DNA of 60,237 bases from positions 1 through 60,237 of the IMG/VR virus record IMGVR_UViG_3300032048_000003; one strand, 5' to 3'. The stretch is from a virus (Duplodnaviria > Caudoviricetes). Within the stretch, counting starts at the first letter, position 1. Every line of letters begins with the position of its first letter. This document shows positions 1,363 through 37,038 of this stretch, piece by piece. The notes beneath the pieces are model-generated. The model made no database searches, had not been told where the DNA came from, and was given only the letters and a program-made list of their open reading frames with translations. A program made the position numbers and the translations under genes.

Positions 1363-2709
1363 ATGTTAAACCCAAAAAATCATGATACGTATTGTCATTA
1401 TCCATTTAAAGCTATGACCTTTAAGAAGTGGTCTGACGATGGTAAGAGACCAACTAATGTTACACCTTGTTGCATGATGATGAACCCTGTGGAACAAAAG
1501 GGAGAGGCTGCAGATATGCATTATGACATGGGTCTTTCCGAAACGGCGCTAGCAGGAATGAATCCCCTTGACATATTTAATTCTCCCCAATACGAAAAGC
1601 TAAGAAACGATTTAACGAACGGCATAAAAAATGAAGTATGTTCTGTCTGCTGGAAGATGGAAGAAAAAGGTTTAGAATCGTTTAGACAATGTTCTGATTT
1701 TGATGGAGGTAAAGAAACTGATGGTTTATTTGAGTTTGACATATCTCTTTCTAACCTATGTAATTTAGCCTGTAGAATGTGCAATATAGGAAGTTCACAT
1801 CAGATAGGTAAGGATGTAGAGGCAATGCGTGCTAACGGCACTTACGATGAATTTATGAGAGTAAGTGATAGAGCAATGCCACGTAAAAAAGGTGTTATCT
1901 ATGATAAAGAGTCTAACGAAGTAATTGATTGGTTAATGAATAATACTCATCAGATAAAAATGTTAAAAGCATCTGGGGGAGAACCTTTTTATGATAGACG
2001 AGTTGTAAAGGTATTAGAAAAGTATGTTGAAGATGGTACTGCTAAAAATACAACTTTAAAGTTCCATACCAATGCTACTCAATTTACACCTGAGCTAGCA
2101 AATCTGTTAAACAACTTTAAAGAACAGGGTCATACATTTAGTATAGACGGCACACAAAGAACTTATAATTATATCAGACATCATTCTGATTGGAATAAAT
2201 TAAATGAAAGTCTAGATAGTTATCTAAGCACATGTAATAATATTAAACATCAATATTTTAATATGGTGTTATCTGGTATTAATGTTTTGAATGCTGCAGA
2301 TTATATAGAATGGATATGTAATAAATGTATATACCATAAGGTCCCTAGTTATTATATTCATTTTGCAGAAATGTTTCCAGGTAATAGGGGAACATCAATT
2401 AAAAATATTCCCATAGAACTTTTAGAAGAATCATTAGATAGACTTATAGAAGTAATAGATTCAGGTATAGCAACTGTGGCAGATTCAGATACTGTACACG
2501 CAACTATAAGAGGAAAAGAATATAAGAAGTGGTATAGATTTAATATTCATAATTTAGTTGGTCAAATACAAAATGCAATTAATAATCATAATGGGGATTA
2601 TAATAAGTTTAAAAAAGAATTAGTCATTTTAGATACTGTTAGAAATCAATCTTATAAGGATTATATAGACCCCTTACTAATAAATCACTTGGATAATATA
2701 AATGTATAA
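1363..2709 (+). CDS. radical SAM protein with N-terminal twitch/SPASM-like Cys cluster
   Basis: CNLACRMC (CxxxCxxC), GGEPF, SIDG motifs; N-terminal C..PF/PCC/CSVCW. Confidence 0.88.
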   Translation: MLNPKNHDTYCHYPFKAMTFKKWSDDGKRPTNVTPCCMMMNPVEQKGEAADMHYDMGLSETALAGMNPLDIFNSPQYEKLRNDLTNGIKNEVCSVCWKMEEKGLESFRQCSDFDGGKETDGLFEFDISLSNLCNLACRMCNIGSSHQIGKDVEAMRANGTYDEFMRVSDRAMPRKKGVIYDKESNEVIDWLMNNTHQIKMLKASGGEPFYDRRVVKVLEKYVEDGTAKNTTLKFHTNATQFTPELANLLNNFKEQGHTFSIDGTQRTYNYIRHHSDWNKLNESLDSYLSTCNNIKHQYFNMVLSGINVLNAADYIEWICNKCIYHKVPSYYIHFAEMFPGNRGTSIKNIPIELLEESLDRLIEVIDSGIATVADSDTVHATIRGKEYKKWYRFNIHNLVGQIQNAINNHNGDYNKFKKELVILDTVRNQSYKDYIDPLLINHLDNINV

Positions 2710-3007
2710 ACCACTACCCCACTATGTAACAATTAAAAGATCTCCCATTTCCGGCCTAGGCCTTTTTGCAACAGAGAGAATTGAAGCACATTCATTAATT
2801 GGAATTACCCATCATGCAGATGAGCGCTCTGACGATGGATTCATTAGAACCCCTTTGGGAGGATTTGGTAATCATTCTGATGATCCTAATTGTTTCAAAC
2901 TTTTGATGGATCCTAAAACTTGGTGGATAGGTGCTTTAAAAGACATTGAATCCGGAGAAGAACTTACTTGGTGTTATACATTATATAAAATTAAAAATAA
3001 GGCTTGA
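2702..3007 (+). CDS. SET-domain protein (putative lysine methyltransferase)
   Basis: GLGLFA, NHSDDPNC and ALKDIESGEELTWCY signature motifs. Confidence 0.85.
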   Translation: MYKPLPHYVTIKRSPISGLGLFATERIEAHSLIGITHHADERSDDGFIRTPLGGFGNHSDDPNCFKLLMDPKTWWIGALKDIESGEELTWCYTLYKIKNKA

Positions 3008-3032
3008 CATTTTTAAAAAAATGCTTTATAAT
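3004..3032 (+). promoter_or_regulatory. sigma70-type early promoter
   Basis: TTGACA-17 bp-TATAAT. Confidence 0.8.
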
Positions 3033-3073
3033 ATTAATGTTGTGCCCACAGAGATAATATATGAAAGTTAAAA

Positions 3074-3721
3074 ATGGCAGATTATAGTTATCTAGATAAT
3101 TTAAAAATTAAATTAAAGCGACATCCAGGGGATAATACAATTTCTATACAAGATGCTAGAAAACTTATGAAAGCGAAGGCACCATTAAGAATTCAATTAG
3201 GTTCCGAACGAACAATGTCAATAAAAAAAGATATTGATATAGATAAAATTCTTGAAGAGATAGAAACTCATATTATCCTTGATTGGAAAAAACCGGGAGT
3301 GTGTCAAATAATGTTACAGGGGGTAGAAGAAGATGGTGACCCCTTTTTTGGTTCTAGAGAATTTAAAGAGATTGGAGAAGCAGGATATAAAGAAGAAGAT
3401 TTTATTATTCCTTTATTTTCGGGTATGAAGTATACTAATAAGTTGATAAAAGATTTTAAAATGTTTAGGACTCGAGTAATGTTACTAAAACCGAAATCAT
3501 GTTTATCTTGGCATTATGATCCTAGTATGAGAATACATATACCCTTATGTGGGGATAGTGATAGTTTTCATATTATGGAAGATCCTGATGGCAATAAAAT
3601 AGTTCACCAAATAGAAAAAGGAGAAGCTCATATAATGAATACAGAAGTGTATCATTCTGGAGTAAACCTTTCTAGAAAAGTAGAAAGGATTCATATAGTC
3701 GGTTGTGTTAATGTAGATTAA
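3074..3721 (+). CDS. Asp/Asn beta-hydroxylase-like 2OG-Fe(II) oxygenase
   Basis: LSWHYD, RIHIPL, HSGVN, RIHIV motifs. Confidence 0.75.
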   Translation: MADYSYLDNLKIKLKRHPGDNTISIQDARKLMKAKAPLRIQLGSERTMSIKKDIDIDKILEEIETHIILDWKKPGVCQIMLQGVEEDGDPFFGSREFKEIGEAGYKEEDFIIPLFSGMKYTNKLIKDFKMFRTRVMLLKPKSCLSWHYDPSMRIHIPLCGDSDSFHIMEDPDGNKIVHQIEKGEAHIMNTEVYHSGVNLSRKVERIHIVGCVNVD

Positions 3722-3737
3722 TAAACAGGAGACATCA

Positions 3738-3932
3738 ATGTATACTCAAAAACATCTTATAGATAAGATTAATAAACACATCAATGCTGTATATCCCTAT
3801 ACGGGAGAATATATTATAGATGAGTTATCAAGAAAGGGTACTATGTCACAAAATGTTGGTCACGTGTTAGAGGATGCACAAAAACTGTATAAAAGTCTTT
3901 GTAATGATTATAAACAAGTATTGGACAAATAA
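3738..3932 (+). CDS. hypothetical protein
   Basis: AGGAG RBS and ATG. Confidence 0.55.
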   Translation: MYTQKHLIDKINKHINAVYPYTGEYIIDELSRKGTMSQNVGHVLEDAQKLYKSLCNDYKQVLDK

Positions 3933-4668
3933 AGGGTTTAGTTCGGGGTTCGGCGATTTAATTAATTATATATCATATGAATATATAAATGTCAAAGAAC
4001 CCACAACAATTAATTGGCATTTACAACCCCGAACACACAGACAGATAAAAAGAGTATTAAAATTTTTTAAACCAAATGAGTTGGTTACTCATAAGTTTTT
4101 ACCTCACTCTATTAAAGATGAAGAACCACATGGTTCACATCCTCATGATTATTGGCCTGCGAAAGAATTACATCAACCAGGTGATTATGTGGCTATATGG
4201 TTATATCTATCTCATGTAGGAAAATCGCTTCATCATCAAGATAAAGTTGTAAAGAAGGTTCATTTAGAAATGTTATTAAAGAGCCTTAAAAGAAATGGAT
4301 ATAAAGTAGTTATCATTCCCAGCTTAGGAAATAAGAATCGCAGTGATACATTATATAATATTAATTATGATTTTGATCAGTATGGATATTGTATAACTAG
4401 TATATTAAAGAATTGCAAATTTAGTATTTGTTCAGAAGGGGGAATTGCCCATTTATCAAGATTAATGAGAGTTCCAACTCTGGTTTATTTTAATCAAACA
4501 ATGCCTTGGAAGGGCCATGAGCATTATGATTTAAGAGAATTTTGGATTACAAAATATAGTAGACCAATTGATACTATTGTTGCTGATGTAGCTCAGACGG
4601 CAGAGCAGCTGATTTGTAATCAGCAGGTCACGGGTTCGATTCCTGTCATCAGCTCCAAAGAAAAATGA
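3904..4668 (+). CDS. glycosyltransferase family 9-like protein
   Basis: CSEGGIAHLSRLMRVPTLVYF resembles the GT9 D(S/T)GxxHLAxAxxxP motif; C-terminus runs through tRNA-Thr. Confidence 0.5.
   Translation: MIINKYWTNKGFSSGFGDLINYISYEYINVKEPTTINWHLQPRTHRQIKRVLKFFKPNELVTHKFLPHSIKDEEPHGSHPHDYWPAKELHQPGDYVAIWLYLSHVGKSLHHQDKVVKKVHLEMLLKSLKRNGYKVVIIPSLGNKNRSDTLYNINYDFDQYGYCITSILKNCKFSICSEGGIAHLSRLMRVPTLVYFNQTMPWKGHEHYDLREFWITKYSRPIDTIVADVAQTAEQLICNQQVTGSIPVISSKEK
4582..4657 (+). tRNA. tRNA-Thr (TGT)
   Basis: GCTGATG/CATCAGC acceptor, GCTGA-TTTGTAA-TCAGC anticodon arm, GTTCGA, CCA. Confidence 0.93.
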
Positions 4669-5126
4669 TACCTATAATAATACAAGATAACTTTTTAAGT
4701 AGTGAGGAATGTAAACAACTTATAGATTTTTATAAATCTCGTAGCCATGCCTCTGAAAAATATAGTACAACATATCCATTAGTTATTAAAACTGATGAAC
4801 ATAAATTATTAACAGAAAAAATTAATAAGGTTGGTTTTAATGTAAATAATACAATAGTTGATTGGTTTCAAATTGTTAGATGGCCTTCTCCTAATTCAGG
4901 TAAAAATTTACATAAAGACATATCATCAGTGCTTAGTAGTGTCATTTATCTTAATGATGATTATGATGGCGGACATACATATTTTAAGGATGGTACAAGT
5001 TTTGCACCCGCTATAGGCCGTGCAATTTTTTTTGATGGTAATAATTACCCTCATGGTGTATCACACATTGATAGAAATGATAGATATACTGTAGCAACGT
5101 GGATGAAAAAGTGTATAATATTATAA
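4665..5126 (+). CDS. 2OG-Fe(II) oxygenase (prolyl-4-hydroxylase-like)
   Basis: HKD, IYLNDDYDGG, HGV...RY motifs. Confidence 0.85.
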   Translation: MIPIIIQDNFLSSEECKQLIDFYKSRSHASEKYSTTYPLVIKTDEHKLLTEKINKVGFNVNNTIVDWFQIVRWPSPNSGKNLHKDISSVLSSVIYLNDDYDGGHTYFKDGTSFAPAIGRAIFFDGNNYPHGVSHIDRNDRYTVATWMKKCIIL

Positions 5127-5668
5127 ATGGATTCTTAGATGAAGATTATTGTAAAGCATTTACAACATATGCACTTCATGAACGATTCGAAAATTTTTCA
5201 CCTTATGATACAAAGAAGCATTTACATCCGGGTGCTGAAACGCATGCGGTTTATAAGGATCCCTTTACTGAAGCGTCGCTCAGAGCGATGTTAGAAAAAG
5301 TTCAAAGATACTTTCCGGATAAGGAGATCTTTCCTTCTTATTCATTTTATATTGTGTATGAATATGAAGCACAATTATCACAACATATAGATAAAACTGA
5401 ATGTGAAATATCTATTACTGTACCTACAGGTTACCTTTATGGTGATAGCTATAAAGGGTCTGTATGGCCTTTATATATGGATGGTAATTCAATAGAGCTA
5501 AATATAGGTGATGCTCTTTTATATACGCAACATCCCAAAAAGTTGAAGCATTGGAGAGAGCCATTCGATGGGATCTACCAAGTCCAACTATTACTTCATT
5601 ATATAACTCAACCGGAAAATAAATCTTCAGCGCCTGCTCCCAATAAAAGGCTGCTGCAAACAGCTTAG
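5099..5668 (+). CDS. 2OG-Fe(II) oxygenase
   Basis: HIDKTECEIS (HxD) and HWREPF, typical of marine T4-like phage oxygenases. Confidence 0.75.
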   Translation: MDEKVYNIINGFLDEDYCKAFTTYALHERFENFSPYDTKKHLHPGAETHAVYKDPFTEASLRAMLEKVQRYFPDKEIFPSYSFYIVYEYEAQLSQHIDKTECEISITVPTGYLYGDSYKGSVWPLYMDGNSIELNIGDALLYTQHPKKLKHWREPFDGIYQVQLLLHYITQPENKSSAPAPNKRLLQTA

Positions 5669-5780
5669 GAACTTAATGGCTCGCAATATAATTATTATTT
5701 GCATTTGTTTAGCCTTTGTTGCATTTTATCTCCATATTGTCATGACAGGGATGTAGTTCACCTACCAATTTCATTACATT

Positions 5781-5920
5781 ATTGAAATCATTACAGATAT
5801 TTGTTTATCAATGATATCAATGCCTTCTAATTATCTTATTGAAATCATTGATAATCTTTTATCAGCAATGATATCAACGGTTTCTAATTATCCTATTGGA
5901 ATCATTGATAATCATTTCTG
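5781..5920. repeat. 57-bp-period tandem repeat with IHF-like ATCAA boxes
   Basis: ATTG(A/G)AATCATT at 5781, 5838 and 5895 with inverted CAATGATATCAA copies in between. Confidence 0.85.
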
Positions 5921-5949
5921 TTGCTTTTTTGAGCTAGATATGATATAAT
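5921..5949 (+). promoter_or_regulatory. sigma70-type early promoter (extended -10)
   Basis: TTGCTT-17 bp-TATAAT with TG extension; context matches promoters at 21258 and 23918. Confidence 0.75.
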
Positions 5950-6003
5950 ATAATATAGGATAAAAACAGGGTGTGATTATTCTTAACCGCAAAGAGAGAG
6001 ATT

Positions 6004-6096
6004 ATGTTTATTACCGAATTAATTAGATTTATTGGAACAATCGTCGTGTTCGCAGGACTGATGTATATGGTCACTATTCTTTATTTTGTATTATAG
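6004..6096 (+). CDS. 30-aa hydrophobic peptide
   Basis: MFITELIRFIGTIVVFAGLMYMVTILYFVL; first ORF after the promoter, GAGAGAGAG leader. Confidence 0.5.
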   Translation: MFITELIRFIGTIVVFAGLMYMVTILYFVL

Positions 6097-6361
6097 AGGC
6101 ATAATGATTGATGTTGATTTGACAAATATGATTCCAGAAACAGTTCAAGCGGTAAGCGCATTTGATTTGGAAACATCATTAAAATCATATGTTGAAACAA
6201 CGTCCACAATTGGACTTATTAACGCAGATGATGGCACAGCATTGATGTCCGGATTCACTTTATATTGTTCGACATTTCCAGCGGCTGCACCAGTTTGTAT
6301 TCCAATGGCAATCGGATTTGTATACCAATGGTTCGATCAAGTTTTCGGACATATGTTATAA
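6086..6361 (+). CDS. hypothetical protein
   Basis: ORF track; true start probably a little downstream. Confidence 0.45.
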   Translation: MYYRGIMIDVDLTNMIPETVQAVSAFDLETSLKSYVETTSTIGLINADDGTALMSGFTLYCSTFPAAAPVCIPMAIGFVYQWFDQVFGHML

Positions 6362-6447
6362 GATCATACCGGCGATCAACCGCCGAAGCGAAGAGTTGGG
6401 TGGGGAAGGTGGTACACAAAAATTAAAACTTTAAGAGAGAGAATATT

Positions 6448-6678
6448 ATGATGAATAAAAGCCAGATTAAAAAGATTATGGAGATTTCAGGAGACTTGAG
6501 TGAGTTTGATATCCCCAGCATTGATTTAAGTTTAAACAGATCCTTATCTGAACTAGAAAGTTCATATTGGGAATTTATTGACAAAACTGAAGGTGAAGAT
6601 TCTTCTGAATGGAACAAATCCGTCCAAGAAGATTTTGGTGCCCTTGAAGGTTATTTAATGAAAATGGATTTAATATGA
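6448..6678 (+). CDS. acidic hypothetical early protein
   Basis: ORF with GAGAGAGA leader. Confidence 0.55.
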   Translation: MMNKSQIKKIMEISGDLSEFDIPSIDLSLNRSLSELESSYWEFIDKTEGEDSSEWNKSVQEDFGALEGYLMKMDLI

Positions 6679-6875
6679 AATATGCAACAATTGAGATTTT
6701 AAGTGATGTCGAAGCCCATTGGGGTGTGAGTGCCCCATTTGGAGGAAAGCCAGGTGGTAAATACTTAGTCCGCGAATATGAACTAGATGATAAAAATAAA
6801 TCTGTAGAACAAAGTGGGACGTTTTATAAAACAATTAAAGAAGCTGAGGATCATGTTATTAAATACCAAAGTTAA
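6675..6875 (+). CDS. hypothetical protein
   Basis: ORF overlapping the previous stop. Confidence 0.5.
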   Translation: MKYATIEILSDVEAHWGVSAPFGGKPGGKYLVREYELDDKNKSVEQSGTFYKTIKEAEDHVIKYQS

Positions 6876-7152
6876 AAAAAAGAAAAAGATTCCTCAACAT
6901 ATTTTAGATGAGGAACGTGGAGATGAGATTAGACAAATGAGGAAAGAACAAGCTCAAAGGGAAATGTACGATGACCCTTATTTGAATTGGAGCGGCCACA
7001 GGTAAAATGTTTAAATACATATTTCTAGGATTTATATTAGGTTATGCATTCAGTTTTGTTAGTCCAGAATGGTATGCATTTGTTAATAGTAACTTTATCC
7101 AATTTTGTAGGTGGGCAGAATTACCAGATGTAATTTGGCTTTGGATGGATAA

Positions 7153-7425
7153 ATGGATTTTTTTCGGAGCACTATAATGATTATGACAAGACAACGACCC
7201 CATGTGAAAAAGAGCAAGAAGGTTTATAACCGGAAAGCAAAGCACCCAGAACCAAAATTAGATAGGCATTACGTATCAATGATGGTAGAAGAATATCTTG
7301 CAAAGGGTGGAGAGATCACAAAAATAACTGCAGATGGTACTGTTAACCAAAATTCATGGAAAGACCAAGCAAAGAAAAGTTGGAACACGCGACAAAAGAA
7401 AGCCTCGCAGTGTCCGAGCGGCTAG
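7153..7425 (+). CDS. basic hypothetical protein
   Basis: VEEYLAKGGEITK motif seen in small phage proteins; 3' end overlaps tRNA-Cys. Confidence 0.5.
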   Translation: MDFFRSTIMIMTRQRPHVKKSKKVYNRKAKHPEPKLDRHYVSMMVEEYLAKGGEITKITADGTVNQNSWKDQAKKSWNTRQKKASQCPSG

Positions 7426-7477
7426 GAGATGGTTTGCAAAACCATATACATCGGTTCAAATCCGATCTGCGAGTCCA
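7404..7477 (+). tRNA. tRNA-Cys (GCA)
   Basis: CTCGCAG/CTGCGAG acceptor, ATGGT-TTGCAAA-ACCAT anticodon arm, U73, CCA. Confidence 0.92.
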
Positions 7478-7485
7478 TTTTTTTC

Positions 7486-7514
7486 TTGACATTCCATTTT
7501 TAATATAGTATAAT
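7486..7514 (+). promoter_or_regulatory. sigma70-type early promoter
   Basis: TTGACA-17 bp-TATAAT. Confidence 0.8.
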
Positions 7515-7536
7515 AATTTTATTATAAGGTTACAAG

Positions 7537-7746
7537 ATGCATTCAAATAAACGATTACGCCAAGAAGGGGCTATAGCGCGCTTAGAGAAGACAATTGAAG
7601 CGCATCAAGCGGACTTTAAATTGGTAAATAAGATCATAGAAGATAAAAAGTTAACAAAAACTTCAAAAGAATTAGAGACCCTTCGAAATAAAAAAATTGA
7701 GCGTGCTCAAAAAACGATTGAGAATACAAAAATAGCAATGAGGTAA
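7537..7746 (+). CDS. coiled-coil hypothetical protein
   Basis: First ORF after the promoter. Confidence 0.55.
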   Translation: MHSNKRLRQEGAIARLEKTIEAHQADFKLVNKIIEDKKLTKTSKELETLRNKKIERAQKTIENTKIAMR

Positions 7747-7957
7747 TATCTGTCCAGGGTAGGTGGGACAGAAGTGATCTATTCCACTGTACGCCATAAT
7801 AGAGGGCGGGAATAGACATTCTATAGGCTGGCCGCGTTATTCATCTTATCAATGAGTACGGTGGAGGGGGTGATGCTTTATCTTGAGCGTTTATGTTCTG
7901 TCCGAAAACTTTTCGGCATAACGATCATACGCCAGGTAACCAGGTGTAGACAGATAT
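7746..7957 (+). ncRNA. candidate structured ncRNA of unknown family
   Basis: GC-enriched gap; terminal helix ATATCTGTC/GACAGATAT enclosing several hairpins. Confidence 0.55.
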
Positions 7958-7958
7958 A

Positions 7959-8002
7959 GGAAGCAGGGGTCGCTTAGCTAGCTTCCCCTTCTTCCGTTTT
8001 TT
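7959..8002 (+). terminator. intrinsic terminator-like hairpin
   Basis: GGAAG..GGGG / CCCC..CTTCC followed by GTTTTTT. Confidence 0.6.
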
Positions 8003-8016
8003 AATTGGAGATTATA

Positions 8017-8379
8017 ATGAAATATGCTTTTGATATAGATGGTACTATTTGTACTAATCGCGAAGACGTCAGAGAAGAAAAGAAAGATAATACTATAACA
8101 TATTTGGATATGAAACCGTATCCGAAACGAATTCAATTGGTAAACGATCTCTATGATCAAGGTCATGAGATTATATATTGGACAGGTAGAGGTGGAGATT
8201 CATTTAAAGAAGATCCACATCATTGGTATGATGATACAGAAAGACAATTACAGGAATGGGGAGCCAAATACCATGAGCTTATTGTAGGTGGTAAACCATG
8301 GTTTGATATGTACATTTGTGATAAATCTTATAATTCAGAAACCTGGTTTCCTATTTTTGAAAAGATGAAGGATGCCTAG
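8017..8379 (+). CDS. HAD-superfamily phosphatase-like protein
   Basis: FDIDGT, WTGR, GKPWFDMYICDK motifs. Confidence 0.8.
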   Translation: MKYAFDIDGTICTNREDVREEKKDNTITYLDMKPYPKRIQLVNDLYDQGHEIIYWTGRGGDSFKEDPHHWYDDTERQLQEWGAKYHELIVGGKPWFDMYICDKSYNSETWFPIFEKMKDA

Positions 8380-8659
8380 TGAAATTCGGACAAGAACAGA
8401 AGAAATTGAAATTACGGCTAATGAGGTTGAACCAATGAAAGCGATTTTAGAATTTCAGCTACCTGAAGACCAAGAACAACATCGTCAATCAATTGATGGA
8501 ATGAATTGGGCTTTATCTATGTGGGACTTAGAACAGTTTATTAGGAACGAAAGAAAATATAATGATAAGTTAACAGATATAGAATTAGATGTATATGAAA
8601 AGATATCTAATCAGATAGTGGGAATTATGAATGAAAATAATTTAAAATATCCGACTTAA
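8372..8659 (+). CDS. conserved phage hypothetical protein
   Basis: MKAILEFQLPED motif. Confidence 0.55.
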   Translation: MPSEIRTRTEEIEITANEVEPMKAILEFQLPEDQEQHRQSIDGMNWALSMWDLEQFIRNERKYNDKLTDIELDVYEKISNQIVGIMNENNLKYPT

Positions 8660-8661
8660 TG

Positions 8662-8745
8662 GGGGAGGCTGTGCATTGGTGAGCTCAACAGACTGTAAAT
8701 CTGCCGCCTGAGGCTGTGATGGTTCGACTCCATCTCTCCCCACCA
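8662..8745 (+). tRNA. tRNA-Tyr (GTA)
   Basis: CAGA-CTGTAAA-TCTG anticodon arm, long variable arm GCC-TGA-GGC, CCA. Confidence 0.92.
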
Positions 8746-8748
8746 CAT

Positions 8749-8824
8749 AGGCGATTAGCTCAGACGGGAGAGCAGGTGTTTTACAAGCATCAGGTCACTG
8801 GTTCGATCCCAGTATCGCCTACCA
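8749..8824 (+). tRNA. tRNA-Val (TAC)
   Basis: AGGCGAT/ATCGCCT acceptor, GGTGT-TTTACAA-GCATC anticodon arm, CCA. Confidence 0.9.
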
Positions 8825-19396: not shown

Positions 19397-19475
19397 TGGC
19401 TGCGGAGGGTGGAGTCGAACCACCAGTTTTATTCGTCCAACAAACGATTGCGTTTACCGATTTCGCCACTCCGCA
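19397..19475 (-). tRNA. atypical tRNA-Asn (GTT)
   Basis: Reverse complement TGCGGAG-TG-GCGAAATCGGTAAACGC-A-ATCGT-TTGTTGG-ACGAA-TAAAACT-GGTGG-TTCGACT-CCACC-CTCCGCA-G-CCA; U1-A72, G73. Confidence 0.78.
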
Positions 19476-19620
19476 ATTTTTCTAATTCTATTGCTTGTCT
19501 TTGCAATTGATCTAATACTTCATGAACACCAGCACCATTTTTATAAATTGGAATTGCTTTATTACTTTTTACTGAAAATAATTTTCCATCTTTATAAACT
19601 GGAATTATTTCTTCAGTCAT
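19429..19620 (-). CDS. small hypothetical protein running into the tRNA
   Basis: Overlaps the stop of the aaRS-like gene; internal IPVYK/IPIYK repeat. Confidence 0.45.
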   Translation of the reverse strand: MTEEIIPVYKDGKLFSVKSNKAIPIYKNGAGVHEVLDQLQRQAIELEKLRSGEIGKRNRLLDE

Positions 19621-20545
19621 TTTCTAATTTCACCCCATATTTCCGCCGGCCATTATCATCTGCATCTGGATTCAAATTACTATATATCTTCAAGGCACTT
19701 ATAAGTCTGGTAAGGCCTATTCCTCCACCATATCTTGGAAAAAATTTATGACTTAAAAATTCTTTCAATTCTTTTTCTACCCGTTCTTTACCGAATAATT
19801 TAAATAATAATCCAGCATATTCTCCATCGGAAATTGTATGAAACTGGTCTTCCATCTCTTTCGGATCAGCAGACCTTTCAGCGGAACCAATAGTTTCCAT
19901 GCCTCCCATAATTACATCGCATTTGTTAGCAAGTTCTTTTTCTTTTTTCATATTCCAAAAGGGAGAAGTATGGTAAGGAAATTTAGTTATAAATCCAACT
20001 CCGGTAGGATGAGAATCAGATATCATTTGTTCGTGCTCGTGATCTAATTCTTCGCAATTAAATTCTTGACACCACATTTTGTAAGTTTTTTCAGGAAATG
20101 GTCCATTGGTTATGAAATTTCCAAACCCAAATTGTCTGGCAACGAAGTCAGGAACTGTGAAACCTAAGTGCTTAACTAAATCTCTTTCCATATTAAGCAA
20201 GTCCTCAAAGTCACCTGGCGCTTCAAATTCAAACATGGGAAATATAACTTCATGTCTACCTTCAACAGGATTCTGTTCTTGTCTATAAGATGTTGAAACA
20301 CAGAATACACCTTTTAAATCTGGATTATTTAATAGCTCGTATTCCAACCACATTTGGCCGGTTTGAGGTAAAGGCCATATGATATCATTATAATTATATG
20401 TTGCGACAGTTGTAGGATCTTCGCATGCGGCTAATATGGATAATCTGTTTTGGGTATGGACTTCGAGGAAATTTTTATCTAAAAAAAATTGTCTAAGGGA
20501 GGTTGTCACTTTGGTAAAATCATGAGGCGAGATGTTCGTCGTCAT
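19613..20545 (-). CDS. class II aaRS catalytic-domain-only protein (AsnRS/AspRS-like; possibly asparagine synthetase A-type)
   Basis: Motif 1 LRQFF..KNFLEV, motif 2 SYRQE..GRH..FPMFEFE, ETIGSAER, motif 3 GGGIGLTRL; no N-terminal anticodon-binding domain. Confidence 0.85.
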   Translation of the reverse strand: MTTNISPHDFTKVTTSLRQFFLDKNFLEVHTQNRLSILAACEDPTTVATYNYNDIIWPLPQTGQMWLEYELLNNPDLKGVFCVSTSYRQEQNPVEGRHEVIFPMFEFEAPGDFEDLLNMERDLVKHLGFTVPDFVARQFGFGNFITNGPFPEKTYKMWCQEFNCEELDHEHEQMISDSHPTGVGFITKFPYHTSPFWNMKKEKELANKCDVIMGGMETIGSAERSADPKEMEDQFHTISDGEYAGLLFKLFGKERVEKELKEFLSHKFFPRYGGGIGLTRLISALKIYSNLNPDADDNGRRKYGVKLEND

Positions 20546-20581
20546 TTTTTCTTTCTATTAAATATTCTATTCAAATTAATA

Positions 20582-20616
20582 TATTTAGGAAAATAAAATC
20601 TTAATAAATATTTATG
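20582..20616. promoter_or_regulatory. divergent late-promoter-like sites
   Basis: AATAAATA on + (20603); CATAAATA and CTAAATA on - (20609-20616, 20582-20588). Confidence 0.45.
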
Positions 20617-20617
20617 T

Positions 20618-21112
20618 ATGAAAAAGAAACATAGACAACTCTACGATTCGTGGAAATATAAATCAAGAAATTTTATGGAATTTAATAATCCCGTTTTTCA
20701 GGCCCTATTAGGTCTTGTCATATTCTATATCGGACTCAAGATGTTCTCAGGTGGAATGAAATCAATGAGTCATTTAGAACAACTTGAATGGTTTTTAGGA
20801 AATCCTTATTGGATGTTTCTTGGAGCAATTGTATGCACTCTTCTTTGGCAATCTTCATCTCTTACCACAACCGCTGTTATAGGACTTGTTGCATCTGGCG
20901 CATTACCACTTCCGTCTGCGATTGCGGCAATACTTGGAGCAAACGTAGGAACAACAGGAACAATATGGATTGCAGGAATATTAGTGAGCGATGGACTACC
21001 TACCGGAATTACTAAACAAGTGGCTCTTGTACATACAGGAGTGAATACAGTTATGGCGATTGCCTTACTTCCATTTATACAACCTATATCACGATTTATA
21101 TCAAAGTTTTAG
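20618..21112 (+). CDS. Na+/phosphate cotransporter-like protein (single repeat)
   Basis: QSSS and ILGANVGTT motifs of the NptA/SLC34 family. Confidence 0.85.
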   Translation: MKKKHRQLYDSWKYKSRNFMEFNNPVFQALLGLVIFYIGLKMFSGGMKSMSHLEQLEWFLGNPYWMFLGAIVCTLLWQSSSLTTTAVIGLVASGALPLPSAIAAILGANVGTTGTIWIAGILVSDGLPTGITKQVALVHTGVNTVMAIALLPFIQPISRFISKF

Positions 21113-33372: not shown

Positions 33373-33855
33373 ATGAATAAATTATGGTACACTTGGCAAG
33401 AAATGTGTTTAGATGTAAATCAACTTTGTAGAGAGATTACATTAGACCATTTTGAACCAGACGTGATCGTGGGTTTAAGCAGAGGAGGTCTAACGCCCGG
33501 CGTTATGATGTCTCATTGGTTAAAGAAGCCTTTTAAGCCCGTGAAAAGCTCTCTCAGAGACTTTCCAGAATGGGAAGAATATCTTCCTAGAAAGACTGAT
33601 GAAAGAGTTCTAATAGTAGATGACATATGTGATAGTGGTGAAACGTTTGAACGTATATCATCTTTTATTAAGGGCCCAAGAAAGGATCAGCCCTTAGAAA
33701 TCAGTTGTGATGTAAAGTTTGCATCCCTCTGGTGGAATAACGAGGTCAATTTTGAACCTCATTATTACGTAAGGGAGGTCGCAAAGGACACTGAGAATCT
33801 ATGGATACATTTTCCGTGGGAATCATGGTGGTCAGCACCTCTGACATTTAATTAA
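33373..33855 (+). CDS. type I phosphoribosyltransferase (Gpt/Hpt-like)
   Basis: GLSRGG, LIVDDICDSGET, WIHFPWE. Confidence 0.88.
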   Translation: MNKLWYTWQEMCLDVNQLCREITLDHFEPDVIVGLSRGGLTPGVMMSHWLKKPFKPVKSSLRDFPEWEEYLPRKTDERVLIVDDICDSGETFERISSFIKGPRKDQPLEISCDVKFASLWWNNEVNFEPHYYVREVAKDTENLWIHFPWESWWSAPLTFN

Positions 33856-33874
33856 CAATTTAATAGGAAAATTC

Positions 33875-34096
33875 ATGTTAGATAAAGCACTCGGTTGGAT
33901 TAGAGGTATAACCGAACTAGGTCTTGCAATAATTGCCCTTGGAGTTGTTCTTCAGATAATTTTTGGTGCAGCAGTGCCGTTTCTCGGAATGGATATCGTG
34001 GGTTCAGTTGTGTCACTCGTAAAACAATTAGGAGCCGAAGGTTTAATTGGCTTAGTTGCAATATGGGTGCTCTGGGGAATATACGAAAAGAAGTAA
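33875..34096 (+). CDS. small membrane protein
   Basis: Two hydrophobic helices. Confidence 0.65.
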   Translation: MLDKALGWIRGITELGLAIIALGVVLQIIFGAAVPFLGMDIVGSVVSLVKQLGAEGLIGLVAIWVLWGIYEKK

Positions 34097-34110
34097 GACA
34101 ATAAAAAAAT

Positions 34111-34135
34111 AAAAGGCTCTTTCGGGAGCCTTTTT
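34111..34135 (+). terminator. intrinsic terminator (bidirectional-type)
   Basis: AAAAGGCTC-TTTCGG-GAGCCTTTTT. Confidence 0.85.
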
Positions 34136-34218
34136 ATACGCGAGAGCGGTGAAGGGGTTGGAAGACCCGTTAATAATGAGCGAGAGAAATTAACAAACAC
34201 TTTTCTTGGAAGGAGAAA

Positions 34219-35310
34219 ATGAAAAAATTAATTTCAATTTTTATAATTTTGGTTGCAGTCGCAACCTTATTTGGTATTACGGCAGTTGGTAAGAAATTGC
34301 CTTCAGTTGGTTATGTTCTAGTGGGACCAAAAAACGATGGCGGATGGTCAATGAGACATTATCATGGATTCATGTCATTAAAAAAACATGGTTATAACGT
34401 AGCTGGTGTCGAAATGGTGCCAGAATCAGAATCAACAAAAGTATTTCGTAAACTTGCCAGAAAACATGATATTGTATTTGCTACCTCATTCGGTTATATG
34501 GATGGAATGGTGAAGGCTGCAGAAAAAGCACCAGATACAATTTTCATGCATGCCACGGGTTACAAGGGCAATGATACAAATATGGACAACTACGTTTGTC
34601 ACTCATTTCAAGCACGATACCTAACAGGGATTGCAGCTGGAATGTTGACAAAGACAAATAAAATTGGTGTAGTGGGTTCACATCCAATACCTGAAATCAT
34701 TCGTAATATTAATGCACTTACACTTGGTGCACAAACAGTAAATCCTGATATTGAAGTTTCTATAGTATGGATAAATTCTTGGTTTGATCCACCTAAAGAT
34801 ATGGATGCGGCCAAGGCTCTTCTTGATGCAGGAAATGATATACTCTATACAACAACCGATTCACCTAGTGTAGTTGCTCTTGCTCAACAAGCATGGAAAA
34901 CTAATGGTAAAGAAGTTTGGAGTATGGGTAATGATGCACCTATGGGAAGTAACGGCCCAGACCGATACATCACAGGAATGATGTTCAACTGGAATGTTCT
35001 TTACAAAACAATTGTTGATCAACTTGCAGCTGGAAAACTCAAAATGAACCAGAGATGGAATTGGGGCTTACAAGAAAATTGTGTAGGTCTATCGCCATGG
35101 GGTAAGAATGTTCCGGGTGAAGTTGTTAATAAAGTTGAAACTGTCAAGATGCAATGGATTCAAGATGATCTGGATACATACTTTCCTTTTGATCAAGGAA
35201 TCACAAAAGCTGATGGAAGCACAGTTGGTAAAGGTGAAATTGCTAGACCTCAAATAGAAACTATGCAATATTTTGTTAAAGGGGTTGTTTCCCGATTTCC
35301 CTCAAAATAA
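34219..35310 (+). CDS. BMP-family (purine nucleoside) solute-binding protein
   Basis: Signal peptide; VGPKNDGGW, ATSFGY, HATGYK, RYLTGIAAG, SWFDP. Confidence 0.9.
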   Translation: MKKLISIFIILVAVATLFGITAVGKKLPSVGYVLVGPKNDGGWSMRHYHGFMSLKKHGYNVAGVEMVPESESTKVFRKLARKHDIVFATSFGYMDGMVKAAEKAPDTIFMHATGYKGNDTNMDNYVCHSFQARYLTGIAAGMLTKTNKIGVVGSHPIPEIIRNINALTLGAQTVNPDIEVSIVWINSWFDPPKDMDAAKALLDAGNDILYTTTDSPSVVALAQQAWKTNGKEVWSMGNDAPMGSNGPDRYITGMMFNWNVLYKTIVDQLAAGKLKMNQRWNWGLQENCVGLSPWGKNVPGEVVNKVETVKMQWIQDDLDTYFPFDQGITKADGSTVGKGEIARPQIETMQYFVKGVVSRFPSK

Positions 35311-35327
35311 TATAATGAAAGGTATAT

Positions 35328-36461
35328 ATGGAAGGCTTATTTGAAAGCATTCTGACCGCAATAGCGGTTGTTATTAATGGCATACCACAGGGAATTTTAG
35401 CGTTAAGTTTTGGCTTCGCAGCTTTTCCTACGGCAATAGCATTTGTAATTGGTATTATTGGTTCGGCATTCTTTATGTCTGTCGCAACTATATCCTTTCA
35501 AGCAGAAACAATCACGTTAGCTGGTACTCTAGGTAATAATATAAAAGAAAGACTTTCTCTTATATTTTGGGGTGCCACCCTACTGTTGATTCCCTCTTTG
35601 CTTGGAATGAATGAAGCGTTAGTTAATTTTATTGGTCCACTAGTTGTCACATCAATGATGGCTGGAGTGGGTATTATGTTAGCGAATGTTTCTGTAGATT
35701 TGTTTAAGTCAGAAAAATGGACAGGAGGAGTATCTTTAATTAGTGCTTTACTTGCTTGGTTTTGGACCAAAGACTTAGCACAAACAATTATATGGTCCGT
35801 AAGTTTATCCACACTTTTTTATGTTGCATTAAAGTTTAATGCTGAATTGCGTGAAAAGTTAGGTGTCGTACTAGAAGAAATTGTAGTAGACAAATCACGC
35901 GAAAAGTTTACAACGGGCAACATTGAGTGGAAGTTTTGGACTAATAGAAACATTGTTATTGGTGCTTTATCATTAGCATGTTTAAACATTGGCGCCAATA
36001 TTTCATTTGGTAAAATTACTGGAAGTATTGCAGGGACTAATACAAATATAGATCATCTTGCAATTTATTCTAGTCTTGCAGATATGGGATCAGCATTCTT
36101 TGGTGGTGGCCCAGTTGAAGCGATAATTTCTGGAACCGCGGCCGCACCTATGCCAATAGTTGCATCTTGTATTATGATGGGAATTATGGCAGTCATTCTA
36201 TTAAGCAAAGCATTGCCTTTGATCGGGCAGTATGTACATAGAGCATCTATTGCAGGTTTTCTTTTTGTATTAGGTGTATTTGTTACCTTTGCTACAAATA
36301 TGGCTGGTGCTATTAGCATTGGTGGAACTTTTGCAGGACCATATGGATTTGGACCAGCAGGAATGGTAATTGGTTCCGCAGCATTTGTAACTGCAAAATT
36401 TAATCCTTTTTATGGTTTGCTTGCAGGATTTGCTACAAGCCTAATCATGATGGGAGCTTAA
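35328..36461 (+). CDS. NCS2/xanthine-uracil permease-like transporter
   Basis: About 10-12 TM helices; SFQAE, FGGGPVEAIIS. Confidence 0.7.
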   Translation: MEGLFESILTAIAVVINGIPQGILALSFGFAAFPTAIAFVIGIIGSAFFMSVATISFQAETITLAGTLGNNIKERLSLIFWGATLLLIPSLLGMNEALVNFIGPLVVTSMMAGVGIMLANVSVDLFKSEKWTGGVSLISALLAWFWTKDLAQTIIWSVSLSTLFYVALKFNAELREKLGVVLEEIVVDKSREKFTTGNIEWKFWTNRNIVIGALSLACLNIGANISFGKITGSIAGTNTNIDHLAIYSSLADMGSAFFGGGPVEAIISGTAAAPMPIVASCIMMGIMAVILLSKALPLIGQYVHRASIAGFLFVLGVFVTFATNMAGAISIGGTFAGPYGFGPAGMVIGSAAFVTAKFNPFYGLLAGFATSLIMMGA

Positions 36462-36462
36462 T

Positions 36463-37038
36463 ATGGCTTGGGGAGAACCATTTACAGATGAGTTCTATGA
36501 ATTAAAAGTCGCAGGACTTATACGTAAGTTGCCCAAAGTCAAAATCAATGACGAGCTCGCTATTGCGAGCTTTGTCATATTGGGTGATACAGAATTAATA
36601 GAAGAATGTGCTGAAGCAATTATTCTTCTGAATGATTTTCCAAAGAAAGATGAAATTGATATTTTTTGTACACCAGAAGCAAAGGGAATACCATTGGTAC
36701 ATACCATTGCAAGAAGGTTAGGAAAAGATTATGTCATTGCAAGAAAATCTATCAAAGGATATATGGATGATCCTATGATAGAAAAAGTTCAATCTATCAC
36801 TACAATCGGCGCACAAACACTTGTCCTTGATAGGAGTGATGTTAAGAAATTAGAAGGAAAGAGAGTAGGTATTATTGATGATGTAGTATCTACAGGTGGT
36901 TCTTTGATAGGGCTTCAGACAATGTTAGAAAAAATTGATTGTTCTATTGTATGTAAAGCGGCAGTCTTATTGGAAGAGGCTGGATATGATAAAGGTGATA
37001 TACTTTATTTAGAAAAACTCCCAATTTTTAAACCATAA
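36463..37038 (+). CDS. adenine/purine phosphoribosyltransferase-like protein
   Basis: EAKGIPL, ARKS, IIDDVVSTGGS. Confidence 0.88.
   Translation: MAWGEPFTDEFYELKVAGLIRKLPKVKINDELAIASFVILGDTELIEECAEAIILLNDFPKKDEIDIFCTPEAKGIPLVHTIARRLGKDYVIARKSIKGYMDDPMIEKVQSITTIGAQTLVLDRSDVKKLEGKRVGIIDDVVSTGGSLIGLQTMLEKIDCSIVCKAAVLLEEAGYDKGDILYLEKLPIFKP

What the first reader, a model, noticed from the sequence alone, without database searches (positions are those of the whole stretch)
19397..20616. Stand-alone minus-strand unit: anticodon-domain-less class II synthetase paired with a non-canonical tRNA-Asn
Seen: this is the only credible minus-strand unit in 60 kb. Late-promoter-like sites precede a 310-aa protein with class II aaRS motifs 1-3 but no N-terminal anticodon-binding domain, then a 63-aa ORF, then a CCA-ending tRNA. 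The tRNA has Asn identity marks (GTT, U1-A72, G73) but odd features: G37/G38 instead of A37, an A:A mismatch at the top of the anticodon stem, a Leu-like D arm and a 7-nt variable loop. Known: catalytic-only paralogs act as asparagine synthetases (AsnA, archaeal AS-AR) or as the EF-P ligase EpmA; U1-A72 is a bacterial GatCAB determinant. Inference: enzyme and tRNA may form a dedicated pair, e.g. anticodon-independent charging, nuclease-resistant Asn supply, or a non-ribosomal aminoacyl donor.
Basis: partly seen in the sequence, partly recalled or inferred. Interest (0 to 1): 0.85.

Follow-up and report, generated by a model that had tools for sequence, protein, structure and literature searches.

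The report
Phage synthetase core with chimeric tRNA-Asn
A marine phage carries a stripped-down asparagine-type tRNA synthetase gene that always travels with an odd tRNA built on a leucine-tRNA body but marked for asparagine, and nobody yet knows what the enzyme does.

Summary
On the minus strand lie a 310-aa class II synthetase core without an anticodon domain, a 63-aa ORF and a CCA-ending tRNA(GUU). Only the "late promoters" are weak.

The pairing is not chance. The tRNA follows the enzyme in 74 of 80 IMG/VR relatives and in P-SSM2, P-SSM5 and P-SSM7. Scans for the tRNA found the enzyme just upstream in 17 of 17 and 110 of 120 sites.

The tRNA cloverleaf has strong covariation. GUU, G73 and U1-A72 are fixed on a tRNA-Leu-like body. 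Positions 33 and 37 and the variable arm drift.

The enzyme is closest to AsnRS but reaches no curated family cut-off. Its family is also common in Patescibacteria, Rickettsiales, Aureispira, giant viruses and huge phages. There it has no adjacent tRNA. It sits beside, or is fused to, PyrD/PyrF, or sits beside Prs or Dus.

My best guess (about 0.35) is a dedicated, anticodon-independent charging pair. The rivals are close:
- a metabolic enzyme plus a host-charged tRNA;
- a pyrimidine-pathway ligase.

The cassette is real, abundant and, in the literature I could search, undescribed.

The parts
19613..20545 (-). 310-aa AsnRS-like class II synthetase catalytic core without an anticodon-binding domain. 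Member of phrog_29758; cellular homologs are named 'amino acid--tRNA ligase-related protein' by NCBI.
   Evidence: ORF. PF00152 E 7.5e-21. phrog_29758 E 1.2e-111. Below every NCBIfam cut-off. AlphaFold model pLDDT 92.3. Best structural matches are AsnRS, Z 27.2, rmsd 2.0, 245 residues aligned. NCBI name.
19429..19620 (-). 63-aa small ORF, translationally coupled to the ligase (start overlaps the ligase stop by 8 nt). Conserved core S(D/N)K.IP(I/V)YKNG.G(I/V)H..(I/L)..LQRQ. Its last 15 codons are read-through into the tRNA gene.
   Evidence: Strict motif found in 27 of 86 sequences. The start sits at or over the ligase stop in all 15 distinct homologs listed. Alignment A3. Ten related loci add a C2H2-like tail. 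No Pfam or NCBIfam hit for the window copy.
19397..19475 (-). 79-nt tRNA with anticodon GUU, U1-A72, G73, encoded CCA, tRNA-Leu-like D arm, loop UUGUUGG (G37), A27/A43 mismatch and a 7-nt variable loop. It is the short-arm form of a family that mostly carries a long variable arm.
   Evidence: ARAGORN. Rfam 50.2 bits. Family model R1 82.3 bits. Alignment A1 and pair counts.
20546..20617 (-). 72-nt AT-rich upstream spacer shared with the divergent plus-strand gene. It holds one 7-of-8 match to the T4 late box (CATAAATA, 20616..20609).
   Evidence: Sequence; motif count; promoter scan not above chance. The promoter role is not shown.

Best explanation
Shown. The unit is a mobile three-part cassette: enzyme, small protein and tRNA. 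It is inherited as a block in T4-like marine phages. The tRNA is a chimera: a tRNA-Leu-type body carrying the bacterial asparagine marks GUU, G73 and U1-A72. The enzyme is an AsnRS-derived catalytic core with the class II ATP-binding motifs intact.

Inferred, and my most likely single mechanism. The enzyme makes an asparaginyl (or aspartyl) adenylate. It transfers the amino acid to the CCA end of its own tRNA, reading only the acceptor end (weak 1-72 pair plus G73) because it has no anticodon domain. G73 keeps LeuRS off the Leu-type body. The tRNA then reads AAU/AAC. This gives the AT-rich phage an Asn-tRNA supply that does not depend on the host's route. It could also tolerate changes around the anticodon, for example to escape anticodon-loop nucleases. 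The small protein, which has a zinc-finger tail in some relatives, may help hold the RNA.
For: 1. Enzyme to tRNA. A same-strand downstream tRNA of this family is present in 74 of 80 IMG/VR loci: 61 by ARAGORN and 13 more by model R1. It is also present in P-SSM2, P-SSM5 and P-SSM7.
2. tRNA to enzyme. DNA patterns specific for the tRNA found the enzyme directly upstream in 17 of 17 contigs and at 110 of 120 sites. Eight of the 10 misses have under 120 nt of upstream sequence.
3. The cassette sits in at least three different genome contexts.
4. The match is cognate: an AsnRS-like enzyme (profile E 2e-17 to AsnRS; Z 27.2) next to an Asn anticodon.
5. tRNA constraint. Cells paired 99.6%; 18 of 20 pairs carry compensatory changes. 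U1-A72 and G73 are invariant in 36 of 36 distinct sequences although the other six acceptor pairs all vary.
6. The variable arm runs from 7 to about 40 nt between close relatives, so it is not the handle.
7. AsnRS is over its cut-off in only 7 of 35 cellular genomes that carry the enzyme.
8. In Patescibacteria the neighbours are Dus and SerRS.
9. Review passages: G73 is an antideterminant against LeuRS, and Asn identity can be moved onto another tRNA body.
Against: 1. No tool here could test binding or charging.
2. By my recall, the known class II paralogs that lack an anticodon domain (AS-AR, AsnA, EpmA, HisZ) do not charge tRNA. AS-AR entries are titled asparagine synthetase.
3. The motif-2 loop, which reads the acceptor end in Asp/Asn enzymes (recall), is SYR(Q/N)E(P/Q)NP(V/I)(P/E)GRH with no basic residue in the loop itself. 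It is the same in tRNA-linked and unlinked members. The tRNA-linked enzymes are very acidic, median pI 4.81.
4. Homologs at 53-61% identity have no adjacent tRNA-Asn: 79 of 80 cellular loci, 23 of 28 loci retrieved with the fusion protein P0123 (many of them giant-virus MAG contigs), and 2 huge phages.
5. Those homologs are fused to PyrD or PyrF, or neighbour PyrD, PyrE-F and Prs. That points to metabolism.
6. Some genomes hold both a canonical AsnRS and this enzyme.
7. The fixed GUU, G73 and U1-A72 are exactly what host AsnRS, or ND-AspRS plus GatCAB, need. Host charging explains them equally well.
8. Tight physical linkage alone can keep two genes together.
Confidence: 0.35

Rival explanations
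1. The enzyme is metabolic and the tRNA is charged by the host. The enzyme is an AS-AR/AsnA-like ligase that makes free asparagine from aspartate, ammonia and ATP, or carries out another small-molecule reaction. It never touches the tRNA. The tRNA is an extra AAU/AAC decoder, recruited from a phage tRNA-Leu gene by an identity switch. Host AsnRS, or ND-AspRS plus GatCAB, charges it. The two genes stay together because they lie 6-226 nt apart and serve the same asparagine-supply theme.
For: Core-only AsnRS relatives with solved structures are asparagine synthetases (3p8t and 3reu titles). The three fixed tRNA features are the published determinants for AsnRS / ND-AspRS (anticodon plus G73) and GatCAB (U1-A72), and Asn identity is transplantable to another body (review passages). 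The enzyme shows no phage-specific change in the motif-2 loop. Most of the enzyme family has no adjacent tRNA. Asn codons make up 5.2% of the window's codons, 84% of them AAT.
Against: A plain helper tRNA should sometimes occur without the enzyme, yet only 1 true orphan (L332) was seen among about 128 determinable sites. Free Asn cannot be loaded onto tRNA where no AsnRS exists, yet two complete Patescibacteria chromosomes and a Rickettsiales chromosome have the enzyme, GatB and no AsnRS. NCBIfam asparagine synthetase A models score 17-27 bits against cut-offs of 322-389. U33 and purine-37, near-universal in working elongator tRNAs (recall), are not kept. A second clade has A1-U72 instead of U1-A72. 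This reading does not explain the pyrimidine neighbours.
Confidence: 0.27
2. The enzyme is a pyrimidine-pathway ligase. The family uses adenylate chemistry on an Asp/Asn-derived substrate to feed PyrD. For example, it could close the dihydroorotate ring the way AsnA amidates the beta-carboxyl (recall), replacing aspartate carbamoyltransferase and/or dihydroorotase. In phages the tRNA(GUU) is then a passenger, a regulator, or a way to keep Asn decoding independent of a drained Asn pool.
For: Two independent fusions exist: PyrD+ligase (P0123) and ligase+OMP decarboxylase (P0136). Of 80 cellular loci, neighbours are PyrD or PyrD-like in 13, OMPdecase / PyrE-F in 9 and PRPP synthetase in 6. Giant-virus loci L108 and L123 have PyrD, PyrE-F and the ligase side by side. 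OMPdecase lies near the cassette in 9 viral loci, and Prs in 3. P-SSM2 carries pyrE (passage). PyrB was found in only 2 of 35 enzyme-bearing genomes against 14 of 14 controls, while OMPdecase passed its cut-off in 19 of 35 and DHO_dh in 18 of 35.
Against: Two complete Patescibacteria chromosomes (G004, G005) have the enzyme but no PyrB, PyrD or PyrF, so this cannot be the universal role. Many of the 35 genomes are incomplete MAGs of organisms that lack nucleotide synthesis anyway. The chemistry is my inference and nothing tested it. Several 'PyrD' neighbours are short, weak DHO_dh matches (23.5 bits). It leaves the two-way tie to a cognate-anticodon tRNA unexplained. My literature searches gave nothing on this.
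Confidence: 0.17
3. The tRNA is a nuclease-escape tRNA and the enzyme is unrelated. The tRNA is a variant tRNA-Asn whose foreign body and drifting positions 32, 33, 37 and 38 let it escape host anticodon-loop nucleases. The enzyme merely hitch-hikes.
For: Positions flanking the fixed GUU vary between close relatives (U/C/A at 33; U/G/A at 37). The abstract of bioRxiv 10.1101/2025.02.04.636281 reports that E. coli tRNA-Asn(GUU) is a target of the PARIS nuclease AriB, and that phage T5 tRNA variants, including tRNA-Asn(GUU), inhibit that defence.
Against: There is no evidence of such a nuclease in the hosts. It does not explain why the enzyme is almost always present. It can coexist with the best explanation rather than replace it.
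Confidence: 0.08

Closest known systems
Archaeal asparagine synthetase A (AS-AR; PDB 3p8t, 3reu, 1nnh)
   Same: About 290 aa. An AsnRS-type class II catalytic core with no anticodon-binding domain. Same fold: Z 23.4-23.8, rmsd 2.5-2.6, 243 residues aligned.
   Different: Only a weak sequence link (profile E 6e-7; NCBIfam 17-27 bits against cut-offs of 322-389). The phage family is closer to true AsnRS (E 2e-17, Z 27.2). I know of no dedicated tRNA described beside AS-AR (recall). Activity of the phage enzyme is untested.
Canonical asparaginyl-tRNA synthetase (AsnRS)
   Same: Best sequence and fold match. Shares the pocket motifs QxxQxxLE, ExE and G(S/G)xxR and the class II motifs 2 and 3 (alignments).
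   Different: Lacks the whole N-terminal anticodon-binding domain. Scores 28-31 bits against cut-offs of 343-414. Separated from AsnRS and AspRS by a very long branch in the tree. Proline-rich motif-2 loop with no basic residue.
EpmA/GenX with EF-P, and GluQRS (YadB) with tRNA-Asp
   Same: Synthetase cores that lost the anticodon domain and aminoacylate a special acceptor. GenX fold match Z 23.3. GluQRS is recalled, not tested.
   Different: EpmA models score 19-25 bits against cut-offs of 264-287. No EF-P-like partner lies nearby. GluQRS is class I and needs queuosine-34 (recall).
Dedicated synthetase/tRNA pairs (PylRS with tRNA-Pyl; ProRS-like enzyme with anticodon-mismatched tRNA in Streptomyces; both recalled)
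   Same: An enzyme gene and an unusual tRNA gene that are inherited together; recognition does not rest on the anticodon.
   Different: Here the enzyme has no tRNA-binding appendage at all, the tRNA body comes from another isotype, and the enzyme family mostly lives without such a tRNA.
Phage tRNA variants that escape host tRNA nucleases (T5 tRNAs against PARIS AriB)
   Same: A phage-encoded tRNA(GUU) that differs from the host type around the anticodon (abstract).
   Different: I saw no report there of a coupled synthetase-like enzyme, and those tRNAs keep the normal isotype body (recall).

Membership tests
Class II aaRS catalytic core, subclass IIb (Pfam PF00152) | Profile match above the gathering score, and the class II fold | tested here: met
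   74.9 bits against 25, residues 11-285. Model pLDDT 92.3; Z 22-27 to AsnRS, AspRS and LysRS cores.
Class II aaRS catalytic core, subclass IIb (Pfam PF00152) | Motif 2 and motif 3 arginines that bind ATP | tested here: met
   SYR...GRH and GGGIG.TR are conserved. R224, R271 and R280 are kept in at least 90% of 51 members, and R88 in most. Their role is from recall.
Asparaginyl-tRNA synthetase (TIGR00457, NF003037) | Curated whole-protein score | tested here: not met
   28.0 and 31.0 bits against cut-offs of 342.6 and 414.
Asparaginyl-tRNA synthetase (TIGR00457, NF003037) | N-terminal anticodon-binding domain | tested here: not met
   The protein aligns only to AsnRS residues from about 130 (bacterial/archaeal) or 245 (human) onward. 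It is 310 aa against 430-450.
Asparaginyl-tRNA synthetase (TIGR00457, NF003037) | Charges tRNA-Asn with Asn | not testable with these tools
   Needs an aminoacylation assay.
Archaeal-type asparagine synthetase A (NF005052-NF005055) | Curated score | tested here: not met
   26.8 bits against 389 and 17.5 against 322 for the window protein. The best E-value among 51 members is 2.1e-9.
Archaeal-type asparagine synthetase A (NF005052-NF005055) | Core-only architecture of about 290 aa | tested here: met
   310 aa here and 265-300 aa in relatives. Fold Z 23.8.
EF-P lysine ligase EpmA/GenX (TIGR00462, NF006828) | Curated score | tested here: not met
   18.6 bits against 286.9 and 25.1 against 264.
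phrog_29758 (phage protein family, function unknown) | Profile match | tested here: met
   E 1.2e-111, residues 1-286 on profile positions 1-266 of 267.
tRNA (Rfam RF00005) | Score above gathering, and a cloverleaf kept by covariation | tested here: met
   50.2 bits against 29. Cells paired 99.6%, 18 of 20 pairs with changes on both sides, 0 of 500 shuffles as high.
Bacterial tRNA-Asn | Identity set: G34 U35 U36, G73, and U1-A72 for GatCAB | tested here: met
   All are present in the window tRNA. G34, U35, G73 and U1-A72 are invariant in 36 of 36 distinct family sequences, and U36 in 35 of 36. The rules are from review passages.
Bacterial tRNA-Asn | Ordinary type-I body with U33 and A37 | tested here: not met
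   G37 in the window; U37 in most relatives; C33 or A33 in some. Leu-like D arm. Long variable arm in most relatives.
tRNA-Leu | Leu-type D arm and long variable arm | tested here: met
   Model R1 scores true tRNA-Leu genes at 54-68 bits. The arm is long in most relatives but only 7 nt in the window.
tRNA-Leu | A73 discriminator and a Leu anticodon | tested here: not met
   G73 and GUU. G73 is listed as an antideterminant against LeuRS.

The most novel reading that the evidence does not exclude
The enzyme family is an unrecognised pyrimidine-synthesis enzyme. It would build the dihydroorotate ring from asparagine or aspartate by adenylate chemistry, bypassing aspartate carbamoyltransferase in predators, parasites and viruses. 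In marine phages it would work with its own tRNA(GUU), as a tRNA-held substrate or a tRNA switch. That would be a second case, after Glu-tRNA in haem synthesis (recall), of a tRNA drawn into core metabolism.
Probability: 0.1. Interest if true: 0.95.

Novelty: new variant of a known kind. Interest (0 to 1): 0.8.

Why it matters
The cassette is abundant. IMG/VR holds at least 589 relatives, and the cassette is in cultured Prochlorococcus phages that can be worked on at the bench.

If the enzyme charges the tRNA, it is a natural minimal synthetase that ignores the anticodon, paired with a natural chimeric tRNA. That would be a ready-made orthogonal pair and a new way for phages to secure decoding of a frequent codon.

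If it does not, then a highly conserved 'tRNA ligase-related' family has an unknown job tied to pyrimidine genes. The family is shared by Patescibacteria, Rickettsiales, Aureispira, giant viruses and phages. Nearly all genomes that carry it lack aspartate carbamoyltransferase. Either answer fills a real gap, and simple assays can decide between them.

Tried and rejected
- Promoters and terminators. Sigma-70-like sites were not above chance, and no terminator-like site follows the tRNA on its strand. There is no exact late box on the minus strand.
- BLAST of the 79-nt tRNA against phage records found nothing, not even the P-SSM tRNAs. That search was too insensitive to use.
- Huge phages LR756501 and LR756508. 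Model R1 finds only ordinary tRNA-Leu, tRNA-Ser and standard-length tRNA-Asn genes, far from the enzyme.
- A relative of the fusion protein P0136 was not found in IMG/VR.
- AsnRS replacement idea. AsnRS is over its cut-off in 7 of 35 enzyme-bearing genomes, plus one split over contig ends. The 213-273-bit matches sampled (3 tested) are archaeal-type ND-AspRS. So the enzyme is neither strictly in place of AsnRS nor strictly beside it.
- Charge. I looked for a more basic, RNA-friendly enzyme in the tRNA-linked clade and found the opposite.
- RNA libraries. Contigs from four oligo-dT RNA-seq runs of one marine study match the window exactly in places. One 208-nt contig spans 19420-19627 (tRNA 5' part, small ORF, ligase end). 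A relative's contig stops matching at 19396, just past the CCA. Contigs cannot show transcription, strand or ends, and DNA carry-over is possible, so this is not evidence of expression.
- L071 carries GUC, but it also has a deviant D arm and T loop. I treat it as possibly decaying and not as a test of either model.
- Host question. I could not obtain a Prochlorococcus or Synechococcus genome handle, so whether the hosts have AsnRS is not answered here.
- Literature. Searches found no paper that analyses this pair. Sullivan 2010 (passages) only lists 'tRNA ligase' (T4-GC 194) in two phages. Sullivan 2005 (passages) mentions pyrE in P-SSM2 but not this pair.
- Complex prediction and earlier scan notes were not available (see below).
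Full report
What is there.

The window is a 60,237-bp virus record, GC 34%, CheckV completeness 36%. Its nearest named relatives for this gene are Prochlorococcus phages P-SSM2, P-SSM5 and P-SSM7, at about 60% protein identity. Almost all genes run on the plus strand. The one real minus-strand unit has three parts:
- a 310-aa ORF (20545..19613);
- a 63-aa ORF (19620..19429), whose ATG overlaps the first ORF's stop by 8 nt;
- a tRNA (19475..19397).

ARAGORN calls the tRNA Asn(GTT). Rfam's tRNA model gives 50.2 bits against a gathering score of 29.
- U1-A72, G73 and an encoded CCA;
- loop UUGUUGG, so G37 and G38;
- an A27/A43 mismatch;
- a 7-nt variable loop;
- a Leu-type D arm.

The promoter remark is the weak point. 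There is one 7-of-8 late-box match 71 nt upstream and no exact box on that strand. Generic promoter-like sites are not above chance.

The pairing is real and runs both ways.

- In GenBank, the P-SSM2, P-SSM5 and P-SSM7 homologs are annotated 'tRNA ligase'. Each is followed within 6-8 nt by an 85-88-nt 'tRNA-Asn'.
- IMG/VR holds at least 589 relatives of the enzyme, and I kept the best 80.
- ARAGORN finds a same-strand downstream tRNA in 61 of those 80.
- A covariance model built from 36 distinct tRNAs (A1, R1) finds 13 more that ARAGORN misses. Most of them have variable arms of about 40 nt; two are cut by contig ends.
- Of the remaining six loci, three end 5-165 nt after the gene. Three (L059, L068, L085) truly lack the tRNA.
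- In the reverse test, two DNA patterns specific for the tRNA were scanned across IMG/VR.
- Eight of the 10 misses have under 120 nt of upstream sequence. One (L313) is not a family member. One (L332) is a true orphan tRNA.
- The cassette sits in at least three different genome neighbourhoods.

The tRNA family.

The cloverleaf is strongly supported. Of 710 cells, 99.6% pair, and 18 of 20 pairs have changes on both sides. No shuffle and no slid register comes near.

Against this turnover four things stay fixed: the first pair U1-A72 (36 of 36), G73 (36 of 36), G34 and U35 (36 of 36) and U36 (35 of 36). The D arm is tRNA-Leu-like as well. Model R1 scores genuine tRNA-Leu genes at 54-68 bits, close to family members at 62-88 bits.

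Other positions drift:
- position 33 is U, C or A;
- position 37 is mostly U, G in the window's short-arm class, and sometimes A;
- the variable region runs from 7 nt to about 40 nt, even between enzymes 75-88% identical.

So the arm is not a recognition handle.

A second, smaller clade (L114, L116-L119) has the same kind of tRNA with A1-U72 and G73.

Passages of the Giegé and Eriani review state four relevant rules:
- bacterial Asn identity is the anticodon plus G73;
- that identity can be transplanted onto another tRNA body;
- U1-A72 is the GatCAB determinant;
- G73 is an antideterminant against LeuRS.

The phage tRNA is therefore a natural 'transplant': a Leu body carrying the full Asn set.

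The small ORF.

It is a real gene. The core S(D/N)K.IP(I/V)YKNG.G(I/V)H..(I/L)..LQRQ is conserved at protein level in 27 of 86 sequences. Its start always sits at or over the ligase stop. Ten loci add a C2H2-like tail (zf-C2H2, 24.0 bits against a cut-off of 25.2). It is absent from the P-SSM2/P-SSM7 type, so it is an accessory. In the window its last 15 codons are simply the tRNA read as protein.

The enzyme.

- Pfam sees only the class II D/K/N core.
- Every curated NCBIfam model (AspRS-ND, LysRS, AsnRS, asparagine synthetase A, EpmA) scores far below its cut-off.
- It belongs to phrog_29758, function unknown.
- A 51-sequence profile is closest to AsnRS (E 2e-17). Then come archaeal-type AspRS (2e-13), archaeal asparagine synthetase A (6e-7), LysRS (1e-5) and GenX (2e-4).
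- The AlphaFold model (pLDDT 92.3) gives the same order: AsnRS Z 27.2, AspRS 26.1, AS-AR 23.8, GenX and LysRS 23.3.
- The pocket motifs align with AsnRS: QTGQMWLE with QSSQLYLE, FEFE with VEAE, and SAER with GSMR. That these residues separate Asn from Asp is my recall.
- Motif 2 and motif 3 arginines are kept.
- The motif-2 loop is proline-rich, has no basic residue, and is the same in all clades. The protein is acidic.

The surprise: the family is not a phage speciality.

The genome collection holds 256 relatives at 53-73% identity. The best 80 are mostly Patescibacteria, Rickettsiales (Midichloriaceae, Bandiella) and Aureispira/Chitinophagales. They include closed chromosomes. NCBI names these proteins 'amino acid--tRNA ligase-related protein'.

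Only one of the 80 loci has the tRNA. That is L125, a phage-like contig binned into a MAG. Many of the loci retrieved with the fusion protein P0123 are giant-virus MAG contigs; 23 of those 28 loci, and both huge phages, also lack an adjacent tRNA.

In a tree (143 family rows after removing near-duplicates, plus 9 outgroup cores) the family is one tight clade on a very long stem. Of the 49 tRNA-linked rows, 45 fall in one clade of 52 rows and 4 in a second clade.

The neighbours elsewhere point away from translation:
- Fusion proteins PyrD+ligase and ligase+OMP decarboxylase exist.
- Of 80 cellular loci, PyrD or PyrD-like lies nearby in 13, OMPdecase / PyrE-F in 9 and PRPP synthetase in 6.
- In Patescibacteria the order is SerRS-Dus-ligase-DnaX, with Dus in 17 loci.
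- Giant-virus loci have PyrD, PyrE-F and the ligase side by side.
- Nine viral loci have an OMP decarboxylase near the cassette, most of them tRNA-linked.

Across 35 enzyme-bearing genomes:
- aspartate carbamoyltransferase was found in 2, against 14 of 14 controls;
- OMP decarboxylase passed its cut-off in 19;
- DHO dehydrogenase passed its cut-off in 18;
- AsnRS passed its cut-off in 7.

Two closed Patescibacteria chromosomes have the enzyme but none of PyrB, PyrD, PyrF, AsnRS or AsnB. They do have GatB.

No single known activity fits all of this. These observations speak against:
- a plain AsnRS stand-in: the pyrimidine fusions, and coexistence with AsnRS;
- a plain asparagine synthetase: presence where free Asn cannot be charged;
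- a universal pyrimidine enzyme: presence in genomes without the pathway.

Weighing the models.

The two-way tie to a tRNA with the cognate anticodon, kept over enzyme divergence to about 57-60% identity, argues for a working relationship in phages. The conserved acceptor end is what a core-only class IIb enzyme could read.

Against that stand four points:
- every anticodon-domain-less class II paralog I can recall is not a tRNA-charging enzyme;
- the enzyme shows no phage-specific adaptation;
- the fixed tRNA marks are just those the host's own Asn route needs;
- close physical linkage can by itself keep two genes together.

My odds are:
- the dedicated charging pair, about 0.35;
- a metabolic enzyme with a host-charged tRNA, about 0.27;
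- a pyrimidine-pathway ligase, about 0.17;
- a pure nuclease-escape tRNA with a hitch-hiking enzyme, about 0.08;
- the remainder unassigned.

What is solid is the anatomy, the abundance, the chimeric tRNA and the breadth of the enzyme family. What is inferred is every statement about chemistry.

Known or new.

GenBank records and one table in Sullivan et al. 2010 name the gene 'tRNA ligase' and the RNA 'tRNA-Asn'. I found no analysis of the pair, of the tRNA's hybrid nature, or of the family's spread and pyrimidine context in five literature searches. Subscription journals and supplements were out of reach.

I file it as a new variant of a known kind: a synthetase paralog with a dedicated partner. 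There is a real chance that the enzyme's chemistry is new.

Limits.

The hosts' Asn pathway could not be checked. Many of the 35 genomes are incomplete MAGs. RNA-library contigs that match the window cannot prove transcription.

Noticed in passing
window 20618-21112 (+): A 164-aa membrane protein with a single Na+/Pi-cotransporter domain (PF02690, 60.4 bits) is transcribed divergently from the ligase. The same neighbour occurs in 29 of 114 viral loci across several subclades, so it may belong to an extended module.
   Followed up: partly
L048:1316-1597 and 19 other related loci: A phage-encoded ribosomal protein bS21 gene (PF01165, 46 bits) lies within 3 kb of the cassette in 20 of 114 viral loci.
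   Followed up: partly
proteins P0123 and P0136; loci L108, L123, L140, L175, L176, L190: The enzyme family is fused to dihydroorotate dehydrogenase or OMP decarboxylase. It neighbours PyrD, PyrE-F and PRPP synthetase in Aureispira, Midichloriaceae and giant-virus contigs. Of 35 genomes that carry the enzyme, 33 show no aspartate carbamoyltransferase.
   Followed up: partly
L129, L134, L141, L144, L170, L174, L192, L203 and others: In Patescibacteria the enzyme sits in a conserved SerRS - Dus - enzyme - DnaX order. A tRNA-Gln lies within 3 kb downstream, on the same strand, in 9 genome loci.
   Followed up: no
window 33373-37038 (+): Two phosphoribosyltransferase-domain proteins (PF00156; 160 aa and 191 aa) flank two ORFs that look, by eye only, like a nucleoside-binding lipoprotein and a permease. 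This may be a nucleotide-salvage cluster.
   Followed up: partly
window 1071-8824 (+): Six further tRNA genes (Met, Gly, Thr, Cys, Tyr, Val) lie on the plus strand, far from the tRNA(GUU) and on the other strand.
   Followed up: no
L071:3868-3966; L332:107-191: One cassette tRNA carries GUC instead of GUU, with a deviant D arm and T loop. One family tRNA (64 bits) stands with no enzyme within 14 kb upstream.
   Followed up: partly
L023:3846-4079 and 9 other loci: The small ORF gains a C-terminal C2H2-type zinc-finger-like tail (CFEC...H...H), just under the Pfam cut-off (24.0 bits against 25.2).
   Followed up: partly
L024:3815-4240 (-) and 11 other loci: A 142-aa ORF directly after the tRNA, on the other strand, has a PRPP-binding-like motif by eye but no Pfam hit.
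   Followed up: partly
window 19396/19397: A contig of a relative in an RNA-seq library matches the window from 19607 down to 19396 and then diverges, so the shared block ends just past the tRNA's CCA.
   Followed up: no
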